Shown here one piece after another: positions 41,247 through 60,552 of a stretch of DNA of 60,596 nt. The stretch lies in the NCBI GenBank assembly GCA_013140805.1, contig JABFRW010000023.1, positions 1-60,596 on the forward strand, written 5' to 3'. Position 1 is the stretch's first letter. Every line of letters starts with the position of its first letter. The translations under genes were made by a program, and so were the position numbers. The stretch comes from Candidatus Eiseniibacteriota bacterium (lineage in GTDB: Bacteria; Eisenbacteria; RBG-16-71-46). The notes below the pieces were generated by a model, which saw only the letters and a list, made by a program, of their open reading frames with translations, was not told the DNA's origin and made no database searches.

Positions 41247-41291
41247 TGGTGGCCCCGGCTGGAGTCGAACCAGCGGCACGCGGTTTAGGAA
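41247..41291 (-). repeat. proximal copy of the 45-nt direct repeat (3' part of the intact tRNA-Arg)
   Basis: Identical to 37062..37106. Confidence 0.9.
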
Positions 41292-41323
41292 ACCGCTGCT
41301 CTATCCGTCTGAGCTACGGGGCC
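41247..41323 (-). tRNA. tRNA-Arg (anticodon CCT), CCA encoded
   Basis: Hand-folded cloverleaf: acceptor GGCCCCG/CGGGGCC, D stem GCTC/GAGC, anticodon stem GCGGT/ACCGC with loop TTCCTAA, T stem GCTGG/CCAGC with loop TTCGACT, discriminator A, CCA. 77 nt. Confidence 0.9.
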
Positions 41324-41331
41324 ACAACAAG

Positions 41332-42327
41332 TTACGTTTTGGTGGCTACCACTCTGGCTACCGCTTTTTCGCTGAGCCGCTCTGCCTCACGCATCACGAC
41401 GTCATCGCTGATGCGCGCGTACCTCTGGGTGGTCTCGATCGAAGCGTGCCCGAGGATCTGCTGCAAAGCAGCGAGACTGCCACCGCGTTCCAGCCACTGA
41501 CAAGCGAAGGTGTGCCTCGTCTGGTGGACGTGGAATCCTGCAAGCCCCGTTTGCCTTCGGATGTAGGCCGAGAACGACCCTGGTGAGAGGTTCGAGAATG
41601 GGACCAACCTGCCGACGTGACCCCTGACCTCCGAAAGCAGCTCCGGAGCGAGTGGCACACGACGCACCCTTCCCGACTTCGTCTTCGACACCACGAGAAA
41701 CCCCCTCTCAACATCCGAAGCTTGAGCCCTCGTCAGCTCTCCCCACCTGAGCCCCGTCCCGAGTGCCAGGCGGCACACGAAACCGTGCGGGTCGGGAAGT
41801 TGTTTGAGCGTTTCTGCATCCTCATCAGCAAGCCGGTCGGGCGGCTGCTCCTGAATCCGCGGCATGATCCTTCGCGGAAACGGCGAGCGATCCACCAGTC
41901 CTGCGTCCTCGGCCCAGTTCAGGAAGCACCGCACGTCAGCGAGGATGTGGCCCACGGTGTTCGGTGCGATGTCGTGCTTCTCGAGCCAGAGGCGGTACGA
42001 CCTGATGTGTTCCTTGGTCACGCGCTGCAGCAATGTCGCTCGGAAGAACGGGTCGATGTACCTCCTGACCCGAGCTGCTGCCATGACCTGTTGCTTTTCG
42101 TTCCTAGCGGTCGCGATGTACTGCCCGAGCCAGCGCTTCGCGGCCTCCGCGACCGTGACATCAGCTCGAGGCAAGTGATCTTCGTTCCGAAGCTTCTTCA
42201 ACTTGGTCTTCGCCTCGGAGAAGTCCTCGCCGAGTGAGATCCAGACGTCCCGGCCGGCGAATCGCTTGCGGAAGTAGTACCCGCCCCTGCCCTTTCGCTT
42301 GATCATGTTCTTGGGCAGCTTCGGCAT
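41332..42327 (-). CDS. tyrosine recombinase / phage-type integrase
   Basis: ATG at 42327 with AAAGGAGGG upstream. GLRWGE, HVHQTRHTFA, LGHASIETTQRYARI catalytic motifs. It ends 8 nt from the 5' end of tRNA-Arg. Confidence 0.9.
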   Translation of the reverse strand: MPKLPKNMIKRKGRGGYYFRKRFAGRDVWISLGEDFSEAKTKLKKLRNEDHLPRADVTVAEAAKRWLGQYIATARNEKQQVMAAARVRRYIDPFFRATLLQRVTKEHIRSYRLWLEKHDIAPNTVGHILADVRCFLNWAEDAGLVDRSPFPRRIMPRIQEQPPDRLADEDAETLKQLPDPHGFVCRLALGTGLRWGELTRAQASDVERGFLVVSKTKSGRVRRVPLAPELLSEVRGHVGRLVPFSNLSPGSFSAYIRRQTGLAGFHVHQTRHTFACQWLERGGSLAALQQILGHASIETTQRYARISDDVVMREAERLSEKAVARVVATKT

Positions 42328-42329
42328 CT

Positions 42330-42500
42330 TCAGCCCTCCTTTCGGGCCTGAAGCCACCGGAACACGTCGCCACGTTCGAACCGTAACACACGGCCGAACC
42401 GGATATGCGGCAGGCCCCGCCGGGAGACCAGCCGGCGAACGGTTTTCGGGCTGACACTGAGGTAATCTGCGACCTGTTGGATCGTGAGTAGCTGGTCCAC
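42330..42500 (-). CDS. excisionase / AlpA-MerR-type HTH DNA-binding protein
   Basis: My translation from the GTG at 42500 (AGGAGGGG upstream): VDQLLTIQQVADYLSVSPKTVRRLVSRRGLPHIRFGRVLRFERGDVFRWLQARKEG-stop, 2 nt before the integrase ATG. It is below the ORF-track size cutoff. Confidence 0.7.
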   Translation of the reverse strand: MDQLLTIQQVADYLSVSPKTVRRLVSRRGLPHIRFGRVLRFERGDVFRWLQARKEG

Positions 42501-52788: not shown

Positions 52789-52818
52789 CCCAGCTTCGCG
52801 ACGAGGCTGGGCTTTTTC
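52789..52818 (+). terminator. rho-independent terminator after the DUF932 operon
   Basis: cccagc-ttcgcgacgag-gctggg followed by cttttt. Confidence 0.55.
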
Positions 52819-52828
52819 ATTCGCTCTT

Positions 52829-53308
52829 CTACACGGGCACACAAAGGTCGGCCACGCGCCCAACGACATCCTTGATTTGGGCGTAGTACTTCTTGACCGT
52901 GTTCAACGTGACCGACGTAGGCCGGCCGTGAGAGATCGTGTTGCGGAGCGCGACGATGCTGTCGAGGGCGGCCTTCTTCTCGTCAACGACATATGCGGCC
53001 AGATCGCGGCGCCAGTCAGGGTCAAAATCAGCAACGACATCAAGAAGCCGCTGAGTGTTCAGATTGGTCAGTCGTCGCGTCCGCGCCTCGACATAGCGCT
53101 GGATGGTCTTGCCCGCGTTTCGCCGAGCGTGCTCGAGAACGAGCTCGATGACAGCCTGTTCGAAGAAACCAGAGACGAGTACGCACAAATACCGCGCGTG
53201 GTCCGAAAGCAATTCAAGCTCGCCGGCGACGCCAATGAGACCGCTCGCCCGCGCAAACGTGCCATCGAGCCTCTGTTGAAGACGTTGAACCTCGGCGCGG
53301 CCGGTCAT
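52829..53308 (-). CDS. HEPN-domain protein (MAE_28990/MAE_18760-like)
   Basis: 159-aa all-helical protein with the Rx4H motif in SIVALRNTISHG. 4-nt overlap with the upstream DUF262 gene. Confidence 0.65.
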   Translation of the reverse strand: MTGRAEVQRLQQRLDGTFARASGLIGVAGELELLSDHARYLCVLVSGFFEQAVIELVLEHARRNAGKTIQRYVEARTRRLTNLNTQRLLDVVADFDPDWRRDLAAYVVDEKKAALDSIVALRNTISHGRPTSVTLNTVKKYYAQIKDVVGRVADLCVPV

Positions 53309-54420
53309 TGAACATCAGCAAACGCCGCCGTCGCCAGCTCGAGGCGCGCCTGGACGTTGGCCTCCTGCGACGTTCCCGTTTCAACGGCTGCGATATACCC
53401 AGCATCGGCTAGAAGCGCTTCGTAGCGCTTTGCGAATCCCGCCTTGTCGTTGATGGGGCCGTGATCGAGCCGCCGGGCGACCGCGGTCATCAGGGAATCA
53501 ATGACGGCGGCGTTGAGTGCGCGCTTTGGTCTGAACGCGCGTTGGCCGAGGCCGGCTTGAATCGTGTCGATCGTGCGCATGAAGACGCTCTCCAGCACAT
53601 TCTCCGGCTGGCGTGCGAGGTGCCGGTTCGCTGCCATGTACCGGTTCAAGAAGTCCTTCATCGGGCTCGCGTATTTCGCGGAGTGGAAGTAGAGGGCGAA
53701 GAACCGCAGAATCATCTCGAGGTCTTTTAGCCGGCTGGAGCGCCGCCCATAGAGCTGGCGCCAAGGCTCGTGATCGTTCAGGTGACGCAAGACACCCACT
53801 AGCTCGCCGTGGTAAAGCGCGACGCGGATCTCTTGAGGTTGCAGATTGACCCCGCCGGTGTTCAGCCGCTCGAAGATGACGTAAATGCTGCTCTGGTCCT
53901 CCGACGGCTCGTCTTGGCGGACGACTGTTGCGTGGATGATGCTGTCGTCGAGGCGGCGGCGGTCCTCGGTGTCGAGGTCCTTGTAGCGCTTCCCAGCGAA
54001 GCGCTCCTGGACGCCCTGCAGCCGATACTCTTCGGCGTGGATTACGCCCTGGTAGTACGAGTGCAGCGTGAAGAGCCGCTGATGGCCGTCCAAAACAAGA
54101 AGTCGGCCCGACTGCTCCTTCACGAGGAAGATGCCCGGTACGGGGAGGCCCAGGAGAAGGGACTCGATGAAACGATCAGCCTTCGGGCGTGGCCAAACGT
54201 ATTCACGCTGGAATCCAACGATGGCACCGGGTTCTTTTGGCTCCCAGCTGAAACGCGGCACCAGAACGTCGTGGGCCTCGATTCGCTTCACGAGGGAGTC
54301 GACCGGGTAGTCGGCTCCGTACGCTGTGATCGAGTAGGTGAACGGAATGACCTCTGAGACCTCGTCGAGATCGTCAACCGGTTCTTCGGCGTGCTCCTTT
54401 GATTCGTCGTGATCGGCCAC
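53305..54420 (-). CDS. DUF262 (ParB/Srx-like, GmrS-type) domain protein
   Basis: FQREYVW, LLVLDGHQRLFTL (a DGQQR-motif variant) and IFERLNTGGVNL motifs. It lacks the DUF1524/HNH half of GmrSD-type enzymes. Confidence 0.85.
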   Translation of the reverse strand: MADHDESKEHAEEPVDDLDEVSEVIPFTYSITAYGADYPVDSLVKRIEAHDVLVPRFSWEPKEPGAIVGFQREYVWPRPKADRFIESLLLGLPVPGIFLVKEQSGRLLVLDGHQRLFTLHSYYQGVIHAEEYRLQGVQERFAGKRYKDLDTEDRRRLDDSIIHATVVRQDEPSEDQSSIYVIFERLNTGGVNLQPQEIRVALYHGELVGVLRHLNDHEPWRQLYGRRSSRLKDLEMILRFFALYFHSAKYASPMKDFLNRYMAANRHLARQPENVLESVFMRTIDTIQAGLGQRAFRPKRALNAAVIDSLMTAVARRLDHGPINDKAGFAKRYEALLADAGYIAAVETGTSQEANVQARLELATAAFADVQ

Positions 54421-54468
54421 CGTGCGTCTCCTTCTTGAGCACGCGGCGTTGTCGGCCGCAGGTGCGAT

Positions 54469-55302
54469 TCAGACCTCGTCGGATTCCGACTCCTCGAGAT
54501 CTTCCTCGGGTGCAACCACTCTGTCGGCGAAGGCCACCCAGCCTTCGAGCAACCAAGCAGGCAGTTGATCATGTCTGTGGACGGCGACTCTGGCGTTTGG
54601 ATAGGCCATTTGTGCCTCCAAGACGGTTCGGACAAGCAGGCTGCCAGGGCTCACTTGAACGGGTGCGACTAGGTCTGGGGCCCGCGTGATGTTTTCGCGA
54701 CTCTGAAGGTATAGCGGAACCACGTAGTTCATCTGGCCAAAGTACCAGTGACCTAGATGAAGTCCGCGATTCAAAGACCACTGAATGGCGCCAGAGACGG
54801 CGCACATTTGTGCGACCGGTGGCGTATCCCGAAGAAAAGGAACGCGATCAGCGTTGTCTCCGAGGATGTGGTCGTGGCTCATTACGATCTCCGCGCCGCG
54901 GTCAAAGGCCGGCGGCGGTGGGATGTCTGGGGGGGTTGGGAGTTCGGGCGCTGCAATGCGAGAGCCGGCCGCAACGAGCCGCCACGGCGACCGGCCTGTT
55001 TCGGCAAGGCGCTGGAACACGAGATAGAGCGGCGTCCCGTAGCGGGTCTGCAAATGTCCGGCGGTGACGTAGAACTGATTGTTGCGTTGCGTGAACCGGC
55101 CCTGCTCGATGCTCCACGGTACGTGCACTGCGAGGTACTTCTCCAACGCGTAGTGGTTATTTCCCCAGTGCTCGGATAGAGCCTCTCGCGCCAACCCTTC
55201 AAGCAGGTTGTCAGGAATGAAGGCGAATCCATGGAGGCGCGGAACGACCTTGCTCGTGTATGCGGAGCCCAGTTGCTCGAGCAGCTCTTCCTGTGTCGTC
55301 AT
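54469..55302 (-). CDS. DUF3825-like protein
   Basis: FAFIPDNLLEGLAREALSEHWGNNHYALEKYLAVHVPWSIEQGRF...QFYVTAGHLQTRYGTPLYLVFQR fits my memory of the DUF3825 N-terminal pattern. It has an acidic C-terminal tail (EEDLEESESDEV). Needs an HMM check. Confidence 0.5.
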   Translation of the reverse strand: MTTQEELLEQLGSAYTSKVVPRLHGFAFIPDNLLEGLAREALSEHWGNNHYALEKYLAVHVPWSIEQGRFTQRNNQFYVTAGHLQTRYGTPLYLVFQRLAETGRSPWRLVAAGSRIAAPELPTPPDIPPPPAFDRGAEIVMSHDHILGDNADRVPFLRDTPPVAQMCAVSGAIQWSLNRGLHLGHWYFGQMNYVVPLYLQSRENITRAPDLVAPVQVSPGSLLVRTVLEAQMAYPNARVAVHRHDQLPAWLLEGWVAFADRVVAPEEDLEESESDEV

Positions 55303-56402: not shown

Positions 56403-57191
56403 TCAGTTGCCCTGCTGGGTGACCGCGCGCTCGAGATCGCGGAGTCGATAGCTGCGGCCCTTGATGTCGAGCACGTGACTGTTGTGCAGCAGACGATCGA
56501 GGATGGCGGTGGCGAGGATCTCGTCGCCGGCAAGTACTTCGGGCCAGTCGCGGATCCCCTTGTTCGTGGTGATCAGGATGCTGCCGCGCTGGTAGCGATG
56601 GCTGACGAGGCGGAAGAACAGGCTCGCCTCCTGCCGCGTCATGGGCTCGAAGCCGACTTCGTCGATGATGACCAGCGAGGTGGAGAGGTACTTCTTGCTA
56701 CGCAGGCGCCGCGTCGGCAGATCGGCGTCGCGCTTCAACGCCGTGAGCAAGTCCTCGAGCCGGTAGAACACGACGCCGAAGCCGAGTTCGACGGCGCGCA
56801 TGCCGAGCGCGATCGCGAGATGCGTCTTGCCCACGCCGGGCGGGCCCTGGATCAAGAGTGTGCGGTTCTCGCGGATCCACTGACAGGTGGCCAGCGTCTC
56901 GATGCGGCTGCGCTCGAGTGCCGGCTGGAACGCGAAGTCGAAGTTGCCGAGCGTCTGTCCGGTCGGCAGCCCCGACAGCACCAGCGACGTGCGGACGCGG
57001 CGCTCGTCTCGAGCGCGCAGTTCGTGCTCGAGCATCCGGTCGAGGAACCGCTGCGGTGGCATCTCCTCGGCCACCGCCTCGCTGAGCCAGGTGGCGATCT
57101 GCTCGGCGGCATGCACCAGGCCGAGCTTGCCGAGTCGCTCGCGCGTGACGTCGAGGTCCATCGGCGGGCCAGTCACGTTGCGGGGCTTCAT
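56403..57191 (-). CDS. istB: IS21-family helper ATPase IstB
   Basis: LLIQGPPGVGKTHLAIALG (Walker A), LVIIDEVGF (Walker B). ATGA-type overlap with istA. Confidence 0.9.
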   Translation of the reverse strand: MKPRNVTGPPMDLDVTRERLGKLGLVHAAEQIATWLSEAVAEEMPPQRFLDRMLEHELRARDERRVRTSLVLSGLPTGQTLGNFDFAFQPALERSRIETLATCQWIRENRTLLIQGPPGVGKTHLAIALGMRAVELGFGVVFYRLEDLLTALKRDADLPTRRLRSKKYLSTSLVIIDEVGFEPMTRQEASLFFRLVSHRYQRGSILITTNKGIRDWPEVLAGDEILATAILDRLLHNSHVLDIKGRSYRLRDLERAVTQQGN

Positions 57192-58444
57192 CGCGCCACC
57201 TCCGCCAGCGCGGCGTACAGATCCAGCGGCCGGGTCTGCGGCGTCATCTCGGCGATCTCCTGGAGTCGGCGACCCATGCGCCCCAACGGCAGTGGCGGCA
57301 GGACCGCCTTCGTCGCCTCGCCTTCATAGTGGCGCGGATCGATCACGATCCGCTCGCGCCCGTGTCGCGGATGCTCGGCGATCACCTGTCCATCGGCCCA
57401 CACTTGCACCACCCGGCTGCAGCCGTGGACCGTCACCACTTTGCCCATGCGGGCGAACGGCACCGAGTAGCGCCGCGCCTCGAACGCCACCGTGCAGTCG
57501 GGCGCCACGGTCCGCGTCGCCACCAGGTTGAACGGTTCGGGCAACAGCGGAACCGGTGAGAGGAAGCGTTGCTCCGCCTGCCACGCCTCCCACACGCTGG
57601 TGCCGGTCGCCGGGCACACTCGCACCTGCGCCTCGCGCACCACGCGCTCGTCCGTCCACGCCTGCAGCTCGTCCCAGCCGGACCAGTCGCGTTCGCCGAC
57701 TTCGCGCCATGCACGGTCGGCGCCGATGCCGCGCTCGACCTTGCCCTTGGCCTGAGGATGCCGCACCGGACAAGGATCGATGTGGAACCGCACCGCCTTC
57801 GCATAGCGCCGGTAGCTCGGGTTGAGCTCGCCCCAGGCACCGGCGCCGCGACTCACCGCCGTCTTCGTGTTGTCGATCCGCACGCTCGCAGCGATGCCCT
57901 TGATCCGCCGGAAGCCTTCGTTGTGCACGTGGTGCCACGCGAGCTGGTCGGAGCGCGGTGACCAGACCCGTGCCCCGAACCGGCTGTGCGACAGCCGCAG
58001 GTGGAACTGATACGCGTACACCGGGCGACCCGAGATCCAGATCTTCGGCCAGTCGGCCCAGTCCGCCTGTGCTTGTGCGCCGGGCGGGGTCTCGACTCGG
58101 CGCCGCGCTCGCACCGCGGGCCTGGGGAAGTGTCGACGGAAGTAGCGCTGCAGCCCGCGCAGGCTGCCGGTGAAGTCGTGCTCGGCGATCAGCCACTCGT
58201 GCAGCGACGCCAGGTTCACCGGCCCGGTGCCGGCGTTCTCCAGGTAGTGCGCGATCGCCTCGGCCAACCCGGCCGCCCGCTGGACCTGTCGCGACCGGCC
58301 GTCCGCCGCACCCGCCTGCTGGCGATGCAAGTGATAACGCACCGTGCTCTCATCGACGCCCAAGATCCGCGCGATCACGCGACCGCTCTGCCCGCGCCGC
58401 GCCAACTCTGAGATCGTCATCCGTGCCTCCCGTCCGAGCTTCAT
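57188..58444 (-). CDS. istA: IS21-family transposase IstA
   Basis: N-terminal HTH (ISELARRGQSGRVIARILGVDESTVRYHL). DDE region: QADWADW...RIDNTKTAV...GKVER. Confidence 0.9.
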   Translation of the reverse strand: MKLGREARMTISELARRGQSGRVIARILGVDESTVRYHLHRQQAGAADGRSRQVQRAAGLAEAIAHYLENAGTGPVNLASLHEWLIAEHDFTGSLRGLQRYFRRHFPRPAVRARRRVETPPGAQAQADWADWPKIWISGRPVYAYQFHLRLSHSRFGARVWSPRSDQLAWHHVHNEGFRRIKGIAASVRIDNTKTAVSRGAGAWGELNPSYRRYAKAVRFHIDPCPVRHPQAKGKVERGIGADRAWREVGERDWSGWDELQAWTDERVVREAQVRVCPATGTSVWEAWQAEQRFLSPVPLLPEPFNLVATRTVAPDCTVAFEARRYSVPFARMGKVVTVHGCSRVVQVWADGQVIAEHPRHGRERIVIDPRHYEGEATKAVLPPLPLGRMGRRLQEIAEMTPQTRPLDLYAALAEVAR

Positions 58445-58632: not shown

Positions 58633-60552
58633 CTACGGCCGTGAAGGGCCCTTCAAACCCCAACATTCCTTGATTTCAAAAGGCACCTCGTGGACACGAA
58701 CGCCCTTTGACCGCGAATCCGGTTTGGCTCGCGCCAAGAGCTCGCGCTGAGCCATGAGCTTCTCCTCCGAAATCCTCACTAGCCCTTCCTCGCCAAACTG
58801 CCGTTGCAAGTCGTCTCTCAGCAAAAGCTCCAGCAATCGGCGCATGCGGCTTTCGACGCCGCTTTCGTCCAACCGTGCAGCAAACATCAGTGGCCTTCTC
58901 ATGAGAATTAGGTCGGCACCATGGTGCACCGCCACGATCTTCACGTGGTCACCTCGCACGAAGGACCGCTCCGACAAACCCAACGCGTCTTCGCGCACTG
59001 CGACGAATGAGTCGGGGATGGATGCGATCCAGGGCGTCCTGCCTGGGGAGTTCTCTAAGAACCTCCACATGGCGTAGCCTGCCCCTGGACTCAAGCACCT
59101 TTCGATCAGTTTCATGCTCCCCGACTCCAGATCCTCTTTTCGCGCGGGCACGAAGACCACCACCCGTCGGCCGCGCCACGCTGGATCCTTGACGCCCAAG
59201 TCACCCCACGTCAGGTTCTCGGGTCGATCGGGTGCCCGCGCGAACAACAGCCTCTGGAGATCCTCGACCCGGATCTGCCTAATCGGGTTGCTCGCATGGA
59301 CGCAAAGGACCATCTCCCCGAAGGCCACGGTCACATAGGCCAAGTTTACGCCTCTGTAGCGCGGCTCTTCCTCGACCAGGTCATCCGGATGGCGCGACAT
59401 CATGCCGCCATCCATCGTCGGGTCTTCGAGAAGACTCTGAAGGGCATTCTCACTGCCTTCTCTCGCGGGTTCACTGACTGAGATTCCGGTTTCCTCCTCG
59501 ATCTTTGAGCGCCGCGGATTGATGATGGCCTCAATCACAGTCTCGCTGCCAACCAGCCTGTAGGGCGGCTCTGGATTCGGCAGTGGCTTGGGCCAAAACG
59601 TCCACGCCACGAAGCCCAGCACGCCCGCTGCGAGTAGGGCGAGCATTGTATTCCGCGCTTTCACTTCTCCCGCCGATTCAATGCCGACGAGACGACTGCC
59701 CGCACTGGCGCACACATCGTCCAGCACGCTCCGGACCGTCGGGTAGCGGCGCTCCGGATCGCGGCATGTACATTGTCGGATGATACGCCGCAGCGATCTC
59801 GTGAGCGGGTCTCTCGCGTGAGCGAGCTCCCCGACATCAGGGGTGGGATGAAATTCGATCTCCGGATCTCGCTCGATCAGCAGGAACAGCAGCAGCCTGC
59901 CGAGGCTGTACACGTCGGCGCTCGCGTCGCGGCGGCCGCGCTTCGACAGTTGCTCGGGCGCCGAATAGGCGATCGTGCCGGGTTCACGGACTGACAACGT
60001 GTGGAGAAACACTGGGTCGGCGATGTCGAAATCCATCAGCACCGGCCTTTGCCGCTCGTCCAATACGATGTTCGCCGGCTTCACGTCGCGATGAAGCACG
60101 TGTTGCTCGTGGGCGAAAGCTACAGCCTCGCAAACTTGCTGGAAGATCACGAGCTTGTGTTCGAGGCTCCAGCCCAGAGTGTTGATCTGCGTCAGGTCGC
60201 CGCCGGGGATGTACGGCATCGAAAACGCCAGTCCGCTGGGCTCAACCTGATCCAGCGGGATGATGGAAGCCGGCCTTCCCTCGGCGTTGCCGAGATGCTG
60301 CATGGCGTGGACGCCGCGGCGGAATTGGTGCATCGCGCTTTCCACCGCCAACCGATCCACGTCGAAGATCTTGATCGCGCGCCGGACGTTGTCAGCAATG
60401 TTGGTGCCTTCCCATACAGTGCTGTAATGCCCTCGGGCGATGACGCGCTGCAGCCGCGCGCCGCAAACCAGATAGTGCAACGCGCTTTCTGTAATTTCAC
60501 AGGTTCCTACCTGTCGCTCTCTGCGTTGATGTAGGTCCGTTCGGTTTCCCAC
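58633..60552 (-). CDS. membrane Ser/Thr protein kinase with extracytoplasmic PstS-like (PBP type 2) domain
   Basis: VLHRDVKPANIVL catalytic loop, DFDIAD in place of DFG, and TIAYSAPEQ. TM helix MLALLAAGVLGFVAWTFW. The C-terminal ~300 aa carry VTVAFGEMVLCVHASNPIRQIRVEDLQRLLF...TWGDLG, reminiscent of phosphate-binding PstS-family proteins. Confidence 0.75.
   Translation of the reverse strand: MGNRTDLHQRRERQVGTCEITESALHYLVCGARLQRVIARGHYSTVWEGTNIADNVRRAIKIFDVDRLAVESAMHQFRRGVHAMQHLGNAEGRPASIIPLDQVEPSGLAFSMPYIPGGDLTQINTLGWSLEHKLVIFQQVCEAVAFAHEQHVLHRDVKPANIVLDERQRPVLMDFDIADPVFLHTLSVREPGTIAYSAPEQLSKRGRRDASADVYSLGRLLLFLLIERDPEIEFHPTPDVGELAHARDPLTRSLRRIIRQCTCRDPERRYPTVRSVLDDVCASAGSRLVGIESAGEVKARNTMLALLAAGVLGFVAWTFWPKPLPNPEPPYRLVGSETVIEAIINPRRSKIEEETGISVSEPAREGSENALQSLLEDPTMDGGMMSRHPDDLVEEEPRYRGVNLAYVTVAFGEMVLCVHASNPIRQIRVEDLQRLLFARAPDRPENLTWGDLGVKDPAWRGRRVVVFVPARKEDLESGSMKLIERCLSPGAGYAMWRFLENSPGRTPWIASIPDSFVAVREDALGLSERSFVRGDHVKIVAVHHGADLILMRRPLMFAARLDESGVESRMRRLLELLLRDDLQRQFGEEGLVRISEEKLMAQRELLARAKPDSRSKGVRVHEVPFEIKECWGLKGPSRP

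What the first reader, a model, noticed from the sequence alone, without database searches (positions are those of the whole stretch)
52829..55302. DUF3825 / DUF262 / HEPN three-gene operon: candidate uncharacterised defence system on the mobile element
Three co-directional minus-strand genes are tightly packed. There is a 48-nt gap between the first two and a 4-nt overlap between DUF262 and HEPN.

- **DUF262:** it carries the ParB/GmrS-type motifs (DGHQR, FERLNTGG) but lacks the DUF1524/HNH nuclease half that completes GmrSD-, SspE- and BrxU-type restriction enzymes.
- **HEPN:** a separate 159-aa protein with an intact Rx4H motif (RNTISH) sits in the position where the effector would be.
- **DUF3825-like:** a protein of unknown function leads the operon.

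The module lies at the distal end of an integrative element, between the conjugation/leading-region genes and a recombinase plus IS21. That is the classic position for defence cargo, and the DNA here is A/T-richer than the host. DUF262-HEPN linkage has been noted computationally, but as far as I know no such trio has been tested experimentally. The mechanism is open: an NTP- or modified-DNA-sensing DUF262 might license a HEPN RNase.
Basis: partly seen in the sequence, partly recalled or inferred. Interest (0 to 1): 0.8.

Follow-up and report, generated by a model that had tools for sequence, protein, structure and literature searches.

The report
PD-T4-2-type DUF262–HEPN defence pair
Two of the three genes form a divergent copy of PD-T4-2, a two-gene anti-phage system already validated in E. 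coli but with unknown mechanism, and the third gene (DUF3825) is an unrelated neighbour, so the proposed new three-gene system does not hold up.

Summary
**Verdict: a known two-gene defence family plus an unrelated neighbour.**

- **Sequence observation confirmed.** The three minus-strand genes, the 48-nt gap, the ATGA overlap and the motifs are as described.
- **Not a trio.**
  - The HEPN gene follows the DUF262 gene directly in 55 of 56 related genomic loci from about 15 phyla. DUF3825 is present in none of them.
  - None of 83 DUF3825 loci carries a DUF262 or HEPN gene.
- **The pair is PD-T4-2-like.**
  - PD-T4-2 (Vassallo 2022) was validated against T4, also by deletion in its native strain.
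  - It has the same two Pfam families, PF03235 and PF18735, and the same gene order and sizes.
  - PADLOC's PD-T4-2_A model matches at 7e-51.
  - The HEPN profile aligns at 98% probability with an E. coli HEPN that PADLOC calls PD-T4-2_B.
- **Divergent clade.** PADLOC's B model misses the window's HEPN, and the A protein scores higher on Menshen NsnA. No NsnB or NsnC gene is present.
- **Likely mechanism (inferred).** A ParB-fold NTPase/DNA sensor controls a HEPN RNase.
- **DUF3825.** It is a separate, rare, highly conserved solo gene with no recognisable fold.

Novelty: new member of a known kind. Interest is low to moderate.

The parts
53305..54420 (-). Gene A of the pair: PD-T4-2A-like / NsnA-like protein (371 aa). 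It has an N-terminal ParB-fold DUF262 NTPase domain and a C-terminal all-helical domain, and no DUF1524/HNH nuclease domain.
   Evidence: Pfam GmrSD_N 8.8e-24. PADLOC NsnA 3.2e-62 and PD-T4-2_A 7.1e-51, both near full length. phrog_2598 2.1e-67. In the AF2 model the C-terminal half is helical with pLDDT 80-98. The best structural neighbours are weak: SspE, then KorB, Noc, ParB and sulfiredoxin.
54193..54210 (-). DUF262 motif I, QRxxxW (QREYVW, aa 71-76)
   Evidence: R72 and W76 are invariant and Q71 is conserved in at least 90% of alignment A4. The motif is defined in PMC12065111.
54076..54090 (-). DUF262 motif II, DGxQR (DGHQR, aa 111-115), the predicted NTP-binding and hydrolysis centre
   Evidence: Invariant in A4. 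The x position varies (Q, Y, F or H) among E. coli relatives.
53851..53874 (-). DUF262 motif III, FxxxN (FERLNTGG, aa 183-190)
   Evidence: F183-G190 are invariant in A4.
52829..53308 (-). Gene B of the pair: HEPN protein of the RiboL-PSP family (159 aa), the predicted RNase effector
   Evidence: Pfam PF18735 2.2e-13. It lies immediately downstream of DUF262 in 55 of 56 loci. hhalign gives probability 98.1%, E 6.6e-14, to the E. coli P2-prophage HEPN that PADLOC calls PD-T4-2_B.
52928..52945 (-). HEPN catalytic motif Rx4H (RNTISH, aa 122-127)
   Evidence: In the 49-sequence alignment H127 and G128 are invariant and R122 is conserved in at least 90% of sequences. The consensus across 48 locus-derived sequences is R-x-x-phi-A-H-G.
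53305..53308 (-). ATGA stop/start overlap between genes A and B (translational coupling)
   Evidence: The same 4-nt overlap occurs in about 40 of 52 related loci.
54421..54468 (-). 48-nt spacer between DUF3825 and gene A, holding the gene A ribosome-binding site (AAGGAG, then 7 nt, then GTG)
   Evidence: No terminator-like or sigma-70-like site was found here.
52789..52811 (.). GC-rich hairpin between the convergent DUF932 and HEPN genes, the likely end of both transcription units
   Evidence: Terminator-like site with 10 pairs (7 GC) followed by a T-run on the + strand.
54469..55302 (-). Neighbouring gene that is NOT part of the system: a standalone DUF3825-family protein (277 aa) of unknown function
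   Evidence: Pfam DUF3825 6.7e-12. Absent from all 56 pair loci. None of 83 DUF3825 loci has the pair. Its contexts elsewhere are variable. The AF2 model has pLDDT 88.5 but no significant fold match.

Best explanation
**What it is**
- Genes 53305-54420 and 52829-53308 form a self-contained two-gene anti-phage module of the PD-T4-2 type. It is carried as cargo on a tRNA-Arg-associated integrative mobilisable or conjugative element.
- Gene A is a ParB/sulfiredoxin-fold DUF262 NTPase joined to a helical domain. That domain is the counterpart of the DNA-binding "ParBDB" domain of NsnA, SspE and GmrSD. Gene A has no nuclease domain.
- Gene B is a small RiboL-PSP-family HEPN protein with an intact Rx4H RNase motif.
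- The DUF3825 gene upstream is an independent cargo gene that happens to lie next to the pair in this one element.

**Shown here**
- The domain identities, motif conservation, strict A-then-B adjacency with a conserved ATGA overlap, and homology of both subunits to PD-T4-2-type pairs.

**Taken from the literature**
- PD-T4-2 protects E. coli against T4.

**Inferred mechanism**
- The two proteins are made in fixed proportion and form a complex.
- Protein A uses NTP binding and hydrolysis together with DNA binding to detect invading, possibly modified, phage DNA. This is what the DUF262 domains of GmrSD, BrxU and SspE do.
- That detection releases or activates the HEPN dimer, which cleaves RNA (tRNA, rRNA or mRNA) and stops phage production. 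The outcome is probably growth arrest or abortive infection.
For: **Pair conservation**
- HEPN lies directly downstream of DUF262 in 55 of 56 loci from about 15 phyla.
- The 4-nt overlap is conserved in about 40 of 52 loci.
- Identities of A and B across loci correlate at r=0.84.

**Family assignment**
- PADLOC PD-T4-2_A 7.1e-51 over profile positions 58-361 of 363.
- Vassallo Table S1 lists PD-T4-2 as "DUF262, HEPN" and validated. Table S3 gives PD-T4-2A as PF03235 (99.7%) and PD-T4-2B as PF18735 HEPN_RiboL-PSP (97.8%). The window gives the same two Pfam families.
- The window's HEPN profile aligns with the E. coli HEPN that PADLOC recognises as PD-T4-2_B: hhalign probability 98.1%, E 6.6e-14, across the RNxxAHG motif.

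**Activity-competent motifs**
- QRxxxW, DGxQR, FxxxN and Rx4H are conserved.

**No nuclease half**
- No DUF1524 hit.
- The C-terminal half is helical, and the nearest structures, though weak, are SspE and ParB-family proteins.

**Carriage on mobile elements**
- Homologues occur in 109 plasmids and 21 phages, and in E. coli lambda-like and P2-like prophages.

**DUF3825 excluded**
-.
Against: - PADLOC's PD-T4-2_B model does not hit the window's HEPN even at E<=1. The A protein scores higher on the Menshen NsnA model (209 bits against 171 bits). An automated caller would therefore not label this locus PD-T4-2.
- I could not obtain the validated ECOR65 sequences for a direct comparison.
- No step of the mechanism has been shown for any member. 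PD-T4-2 is still described as largely uncharacterised in 2025 (PMC12065111).
- Whether protection is abortive or direct could not be read from the text I could access.
- Co-transcription with DUF3825 in this element cannot be excluded, since the gap is only 48 nt with no terminator.
Confidence: 0.75

Rival explanations
1. One reading: DUF3825, DUF262 and HEPN form one three-component system, with DUF3825 as a leading sensor or regulator.
For: - The genes are co-directional and separated by only 48 nt, with no terminator-like site.
- GC and GC3 are similar for all three genes.
- DUF3825 is fused elsewhere to OST-HTH/LOTUS, an RNA-binding module, which would fit an RNA-directed system.
Against: - 0 of 56 pair loci contain DUF3825. 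0 of 83 DUF3825 loci contain DUF262 or HEPN.
- The nearest distinct relative of the pair (73% identity) follows a housekeeping gene after a 325-nt intergenic region.
- The closest DUF3825 relatives (84% identity) sit next to an Mrr gene instead.
- The only other contigs with this arrangement are fragments of the same element from sibling samples.
- DUF3825 is absent from all 72,556 plasmids and 50,697 phages searched, whereas the pair is present in both collections.
Confidence: 0.05
2. The pair is a remnant or variant of Menshen (NsnABC), because gene A matches the NsnA model best.
For: - PADLOC NsnA 3.2e-62 over positions 38-379 of 385, higher than the PD-T4-2_A score.
- NsnA and PD-T4-2A share the ParB-DUF262 plus helical-domain architecture (PMC12065111).
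Against: - There is no NsnB-type ATPase or NsnC effector. The flanking genes are DUF932 (convergent) and DUF3825.
- Every DUF262-HEPN pair tested also scores NsnA above PD-T4-2_A. This includes the E. coli pair whose HEPN matches PD-T4-2_B, so the ranking reflects the breadth of the models and not family identity.
- The Menshen survey itself treats PD-T4-2 as a separate DUF262 system.
Confidence: 0.03
3. The pair acts mainly as a toxin-antitoxin or addiction module that stabilises the mobile element, with HEPN as toxin and the DUF262 protein as its protein antitoxin. Phage defence would be secondary or absent in this host.
For: - Translational coupling and strict co-inheritance.
- Presence on many plasmids next to replication genes, including 3.9-kb plasmids that consist of little more than a replication gene and the pair.
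- HEPN toxins are common in toxin-antitoxin systems.
Against: - PD-T4-2 gave T4 protection from its native promoter and in its native strain.
- Many members sit in chromosomes among housekeeping genes, where addiction has no obvious role.
- A 371-aa NTPase with invariant catalytic motifs is more than a simple neutralising antitoxin needs.
- The two roles are not mutually exclusive.
Confidence: 0.12
4. The system targets DNA like a type IV restriction enzyme. The DUF262 (ParB-like) protein, or a host nuclease it recruits, attacks modified phage DNA, and HEPN has a regulatory or RNA-binding role instead of being the effector.
For: - DUF262 domains sense modified DNA in GmrSD, BrxU and SspE.
- PD-T4-2 was selected on T4, whose DNA is glucosyl-hydroxymethylated, and T4-selected systems generally also protected against T2 and T6.
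- ParB-fold domains have been described as DNases.
Against: - No nuclease domain is detectable in gene A.
- The HEPN R and H catalytic residues are conserved in at least 90% of the sequences examined, with H invariant in the 49-sequence alignment. That argues for an active RNase.
- The clade is spread across about 15 phyla, whose phages are not known to share T4-type modification.
Confidence: 0.1

Closest known systems
PD-T4-2 (Vassallo et al. 2022, E. coli ECOR65; PADLOC PD-T4-2_A/B)
   Same: - Two genes in the order DUF262 (PF03235, no DUF1524) then a small HEPN of the RiboL-PSP family (PF18735).
- Similar sizes: the reference models are 363 and 168 positions, against 371 and 159 aa here.
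- The two genes are adjacent or overlapping, and the system is carried on mobile elements.
- The A subunit matches the PD-T4-2_A model at 7e-51. The HEPN is linked by profile comparison to a PD-T4-2_B-positive protein.
   Different: - About 30-33% identity in A to the E. coli pairs I could examine.
- The PD-T4-2_B model does not detect this HEPN.
- This clade is environmental, high-GC and unusually conserved: A is 55-75% identical across about 15 phyla.
- Its function has not been tested in this clade.
Menshen NsnA (NsnABC system)
   Same: Gene A has the NsnA architecture, ParB-DUF262 with the QRxxxW, DGxQR and FxxxN motifs plus a C-terminal helical domain. It gives the best PADLOC score to NsnA (3.2e-62).
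   Different: There is no NsnB ATPase and no NsnC inPIN-nuclease effector. The partner here is a HEPN protein.
GmrSD / BrxU / SspE (single-chain DUF262-DUF1524 enzymes)
   Same: The same N-terminal DUF262 NTPase sensor and a related middle helical domain. SspE is the top structural neighbour, though not significantly (E 0.018).
   Different: The HNH/DUF1524 DNA-cleaving half is absent. The effector is a separate RNase-type HEPN protein, so the likely target is RNA and not DNA.
RiboL-PSP-HEPN family (Anantharaman et al. 2013)
   Same: Gene B belongs to this HEPN family. Their Table 1 already lists "operon with ParB" for it and an intact Rx4-6H motif.
   Different: That work was computational only. 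No L-PSP fusion is present here.

Membership tests
PD-T4-2 | Subunit A: a DUF262 (PF03235) protein without a DUF1524/HNH domain | tested here: met
   Pfam GmrSD_N 8.8e-24 with no DUF1524 hit at E<=1. Reference: PD-T4-2A is PF03235 at 99.7%.
PD-T4-2 | Subunit A matches the PADLOC PD-T4-2_A model | tested here: met
   7.1e-51, 171 bits, profile positions 58-361 of 363. Caveat: NsnA scores higher (209 bits), as it does for every DUF262-HEPN pair tested.
PD-T4-2 | Subunit B: a HEPN protein of the RiboL-PSP family (PF18735) with an Rx4H motif | tested here: met
   PF18735 2.2e-13. H is invariant and R is conserved in at least 90% of sequences. Reference: PD-T4-2B is PF18735 at 97.8%.
PD-T4-2 | Subunit B matches the PADLOC PD-T4-2_B model (PDLC04028) | tested here: not met
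   No hit at E<=1. The link is indirect only: hhalign probability 98.1% to the E. coli L062 HEPN, which hits PD-T4-2_B at 1.3e-08.
PD-T4-2 | Gene order A then B, adjacent, as a two-gene unit | tested here: met
   ATGA overlap in the window. 55 of 56 loci have B directly after A. No conserved third gene. The reference system has two CDS within 1540 bp.
PD-T4-2 | Direct sequence similarity to the validated ECOR65 proteins (RCO39066.1 and the unnamed CDS 2) | not tested
Searches of complete E. coli genomes found only other variants.
PD-T4-2 | Protection against phage | not testable with these tools
   Requires an experiment. The published evidence is for the E. coli system only.
Menshen (NsnABC) | An NsnA-like ParB-DUF262 plus ParBDB protein | tested here: met
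   PADLOC NsnA 3.2e-62. All three motifs are present.
Menshen (NsnABC) | An NsnB ATPase gene immediately downstream of NsnA | tested here: not met
   The downstream gene is a 159-aa HEPN. No ATPase lies in the neighbourhood.
Menshen (NsnABC) | An NsnC effector (inPIN plus nuclease) as the third gene | tested here: not met
   The next feature after HEPN is a hairpin and the convergent DUF932 gene.
GmrSD / BrxU / SspE | A C-terminal DUF1524 His-Me/HNH nuclease domain fused to DUF262 | tested here: not met
   No Pfam hit. The C-terminal half is all-helical, and no nuclease fold appears among the structural neighbours.
DUF3825 (PF12873), for the upstream gene only | Match to the Pfam model above the gathering threshold | tested here: met
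   46 bits against a cut-off of 27, covering profile positions 1-231 of 238. It is a divergent standalone clade, since canonical OST-HTH-fused members score 180-230 bits.

The most novel reading that the evidence does not exclude
The upstream DUF3825 protein may itself be a previously unrecognised single-gene conflict module, such as an RNA-directed toxin or defence protein.

**For this reading**
- It moves horizontally between variable chromosomal islands and landed next to a PD-T4-2-type pair here by chance.
- It is 60-84% identical across distant phyla.
- It has an invariant set of polar residues that looks enzyme-like: E138, H143-D-H145, R202-E203 and R243-H-D245.
- The structure model is confident, yet no significant fold match exists.
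- Elsewhere it lies beside Mrr, HNH, WYL/WCX, SIR2 and STAND genes.
- Other lineages fuse it to the RNA-binding OST-HTH/LOTUS domain.

**Less likely variant**
- In this element it modulates the PD-T4-2-type pair.
Probability: 0.2. Interest if true: 0.6.

Novelty: new member of a known kind. Interest (0 to 1): 0.3.

Why it matters
- **Annotation gap.** A clade of an experimentally validated defence system is spread across about 15 environmental phyla, yet it escapes system-level annotation. PADLOC's B-subunit model misses it, and the A subunit is drawn to the Menshen model. Broader PD-T4-2_B profiles would recover many such loci.
- **Material for mechanism work.** PD-T4-2 has no known mechanism or detectable solved structure. 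A clade whose sensor subunit is more conserved than its RNase in 44 of 44 loci could help structural and biochemical study of how a ParB-fold NTPase controls a HEPN RNase.
- **Practical caution.** Tight spacing and shared orientation on a mobile element do not make an operon-level system. Reciprocal neighbourhood tests removed the third gene cleanly.

Tried and rejected
1. **Reference sequences.** I tried to retrieve the ECOR65 PD-T4-2 sequences by distant blastn of three E. coli DUF262-HEPN variants against 5,426 complete E. coli genomes. Only the IncX1/IncF, small-plasmid, lambda-like and P2-like variants came back.
2. **Solved structures.** Sequence and profile searches of the PDB for all three proteins found nothing meaningful.
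3. **Fold searches.**
   - DUF3825 against PDB and BFVD gave no hit with E<0.01. Weak RelE/ParE-like hits recur, but I do not count them as evidence.
   - The DUF262 model had low confidence in the N-terminal half (mean pLDDT 67.8). SspE and ParB-family proteins came top, but not significantly.
4. **DUF3825 internal duplication.** Profile-profile comparison of the two halves was not significant, at probability 0.7%.
5. **N-terminal fusions.** Apparent long extensions of DUF262 in L014, L030 and L047 are low-complexity read-through ORFs produced by my crude ORF caller in high-GC DNA. I rejected them.
6. **RNA antitoxin or repeat array.** Rfam at E<=0.1 and Tandem Repeats Finder found nothing in the locus.
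7. **Element boundaries.** A search for att direct repeats found only short chance-level repeats.
8. **Defence-island enrichment around the pair.** Neighbours are heterogeneous, mostly housekeeping genes with occasional restriction-modification, HEC-06, LeoA or PD-T4-6 genes. There is no consistent association.
9. **Literature on DUF3825.** No papers were found in the library.
Full report
**1. Observation**

- 54469-55302: 277 aa.
- 53305-54420: 371 aa, GTG start.
- 52829-53308: 159 aa.

The first two genes are separated by 48 nt. The spacer carries an AAGGAG ribosome-binding site 7 nt before the GTG. The second and third genes overlap by ATGA.

Pfam assigns the three proteins as follows:
- DUF3825: 6.7e-12.
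- GmrSD_N/DUF262: 8.8e-24, residues 70-203 only, with no DUF1524 hit.
- HEPN_RiboL-PSP (PF18735): 2.2e-13.

The quoted motifs are present: DGHQR, FERLNTGG and RNTISH, plus QREYVW.

The genes lie in a lower-GC segment, 0.616 against 0.672 for the first 40 kb. This segment starts at a tRNA-Arg and a tyrosine integrase. It continues through SSB, a relaxase, a TraG-like coupling protein, RadC and DUF932. After the three genes come a second tyrosine recombinase and IS21. The sequence-level observation is confirmed.

**2. Is it a trio? No.**

I collected 56 genomic loci that encode relatives of the DUF262 protein, at 35-78% identity. The phyla include Acidobacteriota, Spirochaetota, Verrucomicrobiota, Nitrospirota, Desulfobacterota, Latescibacterota, Elusimicrobiota, Gemmatimonadota, Pseudomonadota, Chloroflexota and Cyanobacteriota, among others.

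- tblastn finds the HEPN gene immediately downstream in 55 of 56 loci. It finds DUF3825 in 0 of 56.
- The ATGA-type 4-nt overlap recurs in about 40 of 52 loci.
- Clustering of all flanking ORFs finds no conserved third gene. The commonest neighbour family occurs in 5 loci, at varying positions.
- Neighbours are mostly housekeeping genes, with occasional restriction-modification methylases, NotI, HEC-06, LeoA or PD-T4-6 genes.

The reciprocal test gives the same answer. Of 83 loci that encode DUF3825 relatives, none contains a DUF262 or HEPN gene.

The closest distinct relative of the pair (73% identity) follows a 2-oxoacid dehydrogenase gene after a 325-nt intergenic region. The only other contigs with the window's arrangement are short fragments of the same element from sibling samples. 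The conserved unit is the DUF262-HEPN pair.

**3. What the pair is**

PADLOC matches the DUF262 protein nearly full length to NsnA of Menshen (3.2e-62) and to PD-T4-2_A (7.1e-51).

PD-T4-2 comes from the functional selection of Vassallo et al. (PMC9519451):
- Their Table S1 lists it as "DUF262, HEPN", validated.
- Table S2 gives two CDS within 1540 bp of an ECOR65 contig.
- Table S3 gives PD-T4-2A as PF03235 (99.7%) and PD-T4-2B as PF18735 HEPN_RiboL-PSP (97.8%). These are the two Pfam families found in the window.
- Deleting the system in ECOR65 markedly raised T4 plaquing.
- T4-selected systems generally also protected against T2 and T6.

Anantharaman et al. 2013 had already listed "operon with ParB" for the RiboL-PSP HEPN family.

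Menshen is excluded because no NsnB ATPase or NsnC effector is present. The NsnA model also outscores PD-T4-2_A for every DUF262-HEPN pair I tested. That includes an E. coli P2-prophage pair whose HEPN does match PD-T4-2_B at 1.3e-08.

The window's HEPN is not detected by the PD-T4-2_B model. However, a 48-sequence profile of its family aligns with that PD-T4-2_B-positive E. coli HEPN at hhalign probability 98.1% (E 6.6e-14) over 125 columns, including the R-N-x-phi-A-H-G motif. It also aligns with a small-plasmid variant at 97.5% and with a Hymenobacter plasmid variant at 99.7%.

I therefore file the pair as a divergent member of the PD-T4-2 family. One defining test is not met, the direct B-model hit. 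One test could not be run, the comparison with the ECOR65 proteins themselves.

**4. Anatomy and likely mechanism**

Gene A:
- It carries all three DUF262 signature motifs defined for this superfamily (PMC12065111). These are QRxxxW (aa 71-76), DGxQR (aa 111-115) and FxxxN (aa 183-187).
- The motif residues are invariant in a 45-sequence alignment, apart from Q71, which is conserved in at least 90% of sequences.
- Its C-terminal half (about aa 205-371) is modelled confidently as an all-helical domain with pLDDT 80-98.
- The nearest solved structures are SspE, then the CTP-binding ParB relatives KorB, Noc and ParB, and sulfiredoxin. None is significant, and no nuclease fold appears.
- This fits the "ParBDB" DNA-binding domain described for NsnA, SspE and GmrSD.

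Gene B:
- In a 49-sequence alignment H127 and G128 are invariant and R122 is conserved in at least 90% of sequences.

Across 44 loci the sensor-like A subunit is always more conserved than the HEPN, with median identity 67% against 51%. The two identities co-vary at r=0.84.

What is shown:
- The domain content, the motif conservation, the coupling and the co-inheritance.

What is inferred:
- This rests on the established roles of DUF262 in GmrSD, BrxU and SspE and of HEPN RNases.
- A and B form a complex.
- A binds DNA and uses NTP binding and hydrolysis to recognise invading DNA.
- That recognition releases or activates the HEPN dimer to cut RNA and block phage production.

No study in the searchable library describes the mechanism. 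No solved structure is detectable by sequence or by profile.

**5. Rival explanations**

- **A real trio:** about 0.05, for the reasons in section 2.
- **A Menshen remnant:** about 0.03.
- **A toxin-antitoxin or addiction role for the mobile element:** about 0.12, and not exclusive of defence. The pair sits next to replication genes on IncX1 plasmids. It also makes up most of some 3.9-kb plasmids.
- **A DNA-targeting, type IV-like mode with HEPN as regulator:** about 0.10. The conserved Rx4H motif and the absence of any nuclease domain in A argue against it.

**6. The DUF3825 gene**

It belongs to a rare family. Only 191 clusters at 50% identity match among 1.84 billion representatives.

The standalone clade of about 275 aa is 60-84% identical across Acidobacteriota, Chlorobiota, Ignavibacteriota and Pseudomonadota. 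It has many invariant polar residues, including E138, H143-D-H145, R202-E203 and R243-H-D245.

Its neighbours elsewhere vary: Mrr, HNH_2, WYL/WCX, SIR2_2 and nSTAND3, or nothing notable. It is absent from 72,556 plasmids and 50,697 phages. The pair's A subunit, by contrast, occurs in 109 plasmids and 21 phages.

Other lineages fuse DUF3825 to OST-HTH/LOTUS or to TPR repeats.

The AlphaFold model is confident (pLDDT 88.5, pTM 0.84), but it has no significant match in the PDB or BFVD. Weak RelE/ParE-like hits recur, and they are only a lead. A test for internal duplication was negative.

Its function is unknown. Its adjacency to the pair is specific to this element.

**7. Verdict**

It is wrong on the two points that carried the novelty claim, the three-gene system and the claim that it was never tested.

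The pair is a new, divergent and widely transferred member of a known and validated family whose mechanism is still open. Interest is 0.3.

The residual novel angle is DUF3825 as an independent conflict gene. I put this at probability about 0.2, with interest about 0.6 if true.

Noticed in passing
window 54469-55302 (-); loci L063-L145: The standalone DUF3825 clade is rare, with 191 clusters at 50% identity among 1.84 billion representatives. It is highly conserved across phyla and has enzyme-like invariant residues (E138, HDH143-145, RE202-203, RHD243-245). The AF2 model is confident, yet no significant fold match exists in the PDB or BFVD. Weak RelE/ParE-like hits recur. Other lineages fuse it to OST-HTH/LOTUS or to TPR repeats.
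   Followed up: partly
L131, L132, L134, L135, L137, L142: A divergent DUF3825 subclade (about 50% identity) has conserved flanking genes. One of about 500 aa lies just upstream and one of about 750 aa lies just downstream, which may be a real three-gene unit for that subclade.
   Followed up: no
window 58633-60552 (-): A 639-aa Ser/Thr kinase lies beyond IS21 and has element-like GC (0.609). Its kinase domain matches PADLOC mad6 (2e-35) and PD-T4-6 (4e-32). These are generic kinase-domain matches, so a defence role is not established.
   Followed up: partly
window 56403-58444 (-): IS21 (istA and istB) has GC 0.67-0.70, while the DNA on both sides is about 0.61. The IS appears to be inserted inside the lower-GC element and does not seem to mark its end.
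   Followed up: no
window 41247-42357 (-): A tRNA-Arg(CCT) gene lies 8 nt from a tyrosine integrase gene, where the GC content drops. The integrase is on the 5' side of the tRNA, and no att direct repeat was found, so the element's boundaries remain undefined.
   Followed up: partly
L008, L011, L023, L025 (Spirochaetia long-read MAGs): The HEPN ORF after DUF262 is truncated or frame-shifted in these loci (58-108 aa, or an aberrant 305 aa). This could reflect assembly errors or real decay of the effector gene. I did not check which.
   Followed up: no
L060 (E. coli plasmid NZ_AP027509.1, 3948 bp): Very small E. coli plasmids consist essentially of a replication gene, a VbhA-family antitoxin gene and a DUF262-HEPN pair. 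This suggests the pair benefits the plasmid itself, through stability or through exclusion of competitors.
   Followed up: no
L001-L056 compared with the window pair: The DUF262 subunit is more conserved than the HEPN subunit in 44 of 44 loci, with median identity 67% against 51%. This is unusual if DUF262 is the phage-facing sensor, because sensors often evolve faster than effectors.
   Followed up: partly
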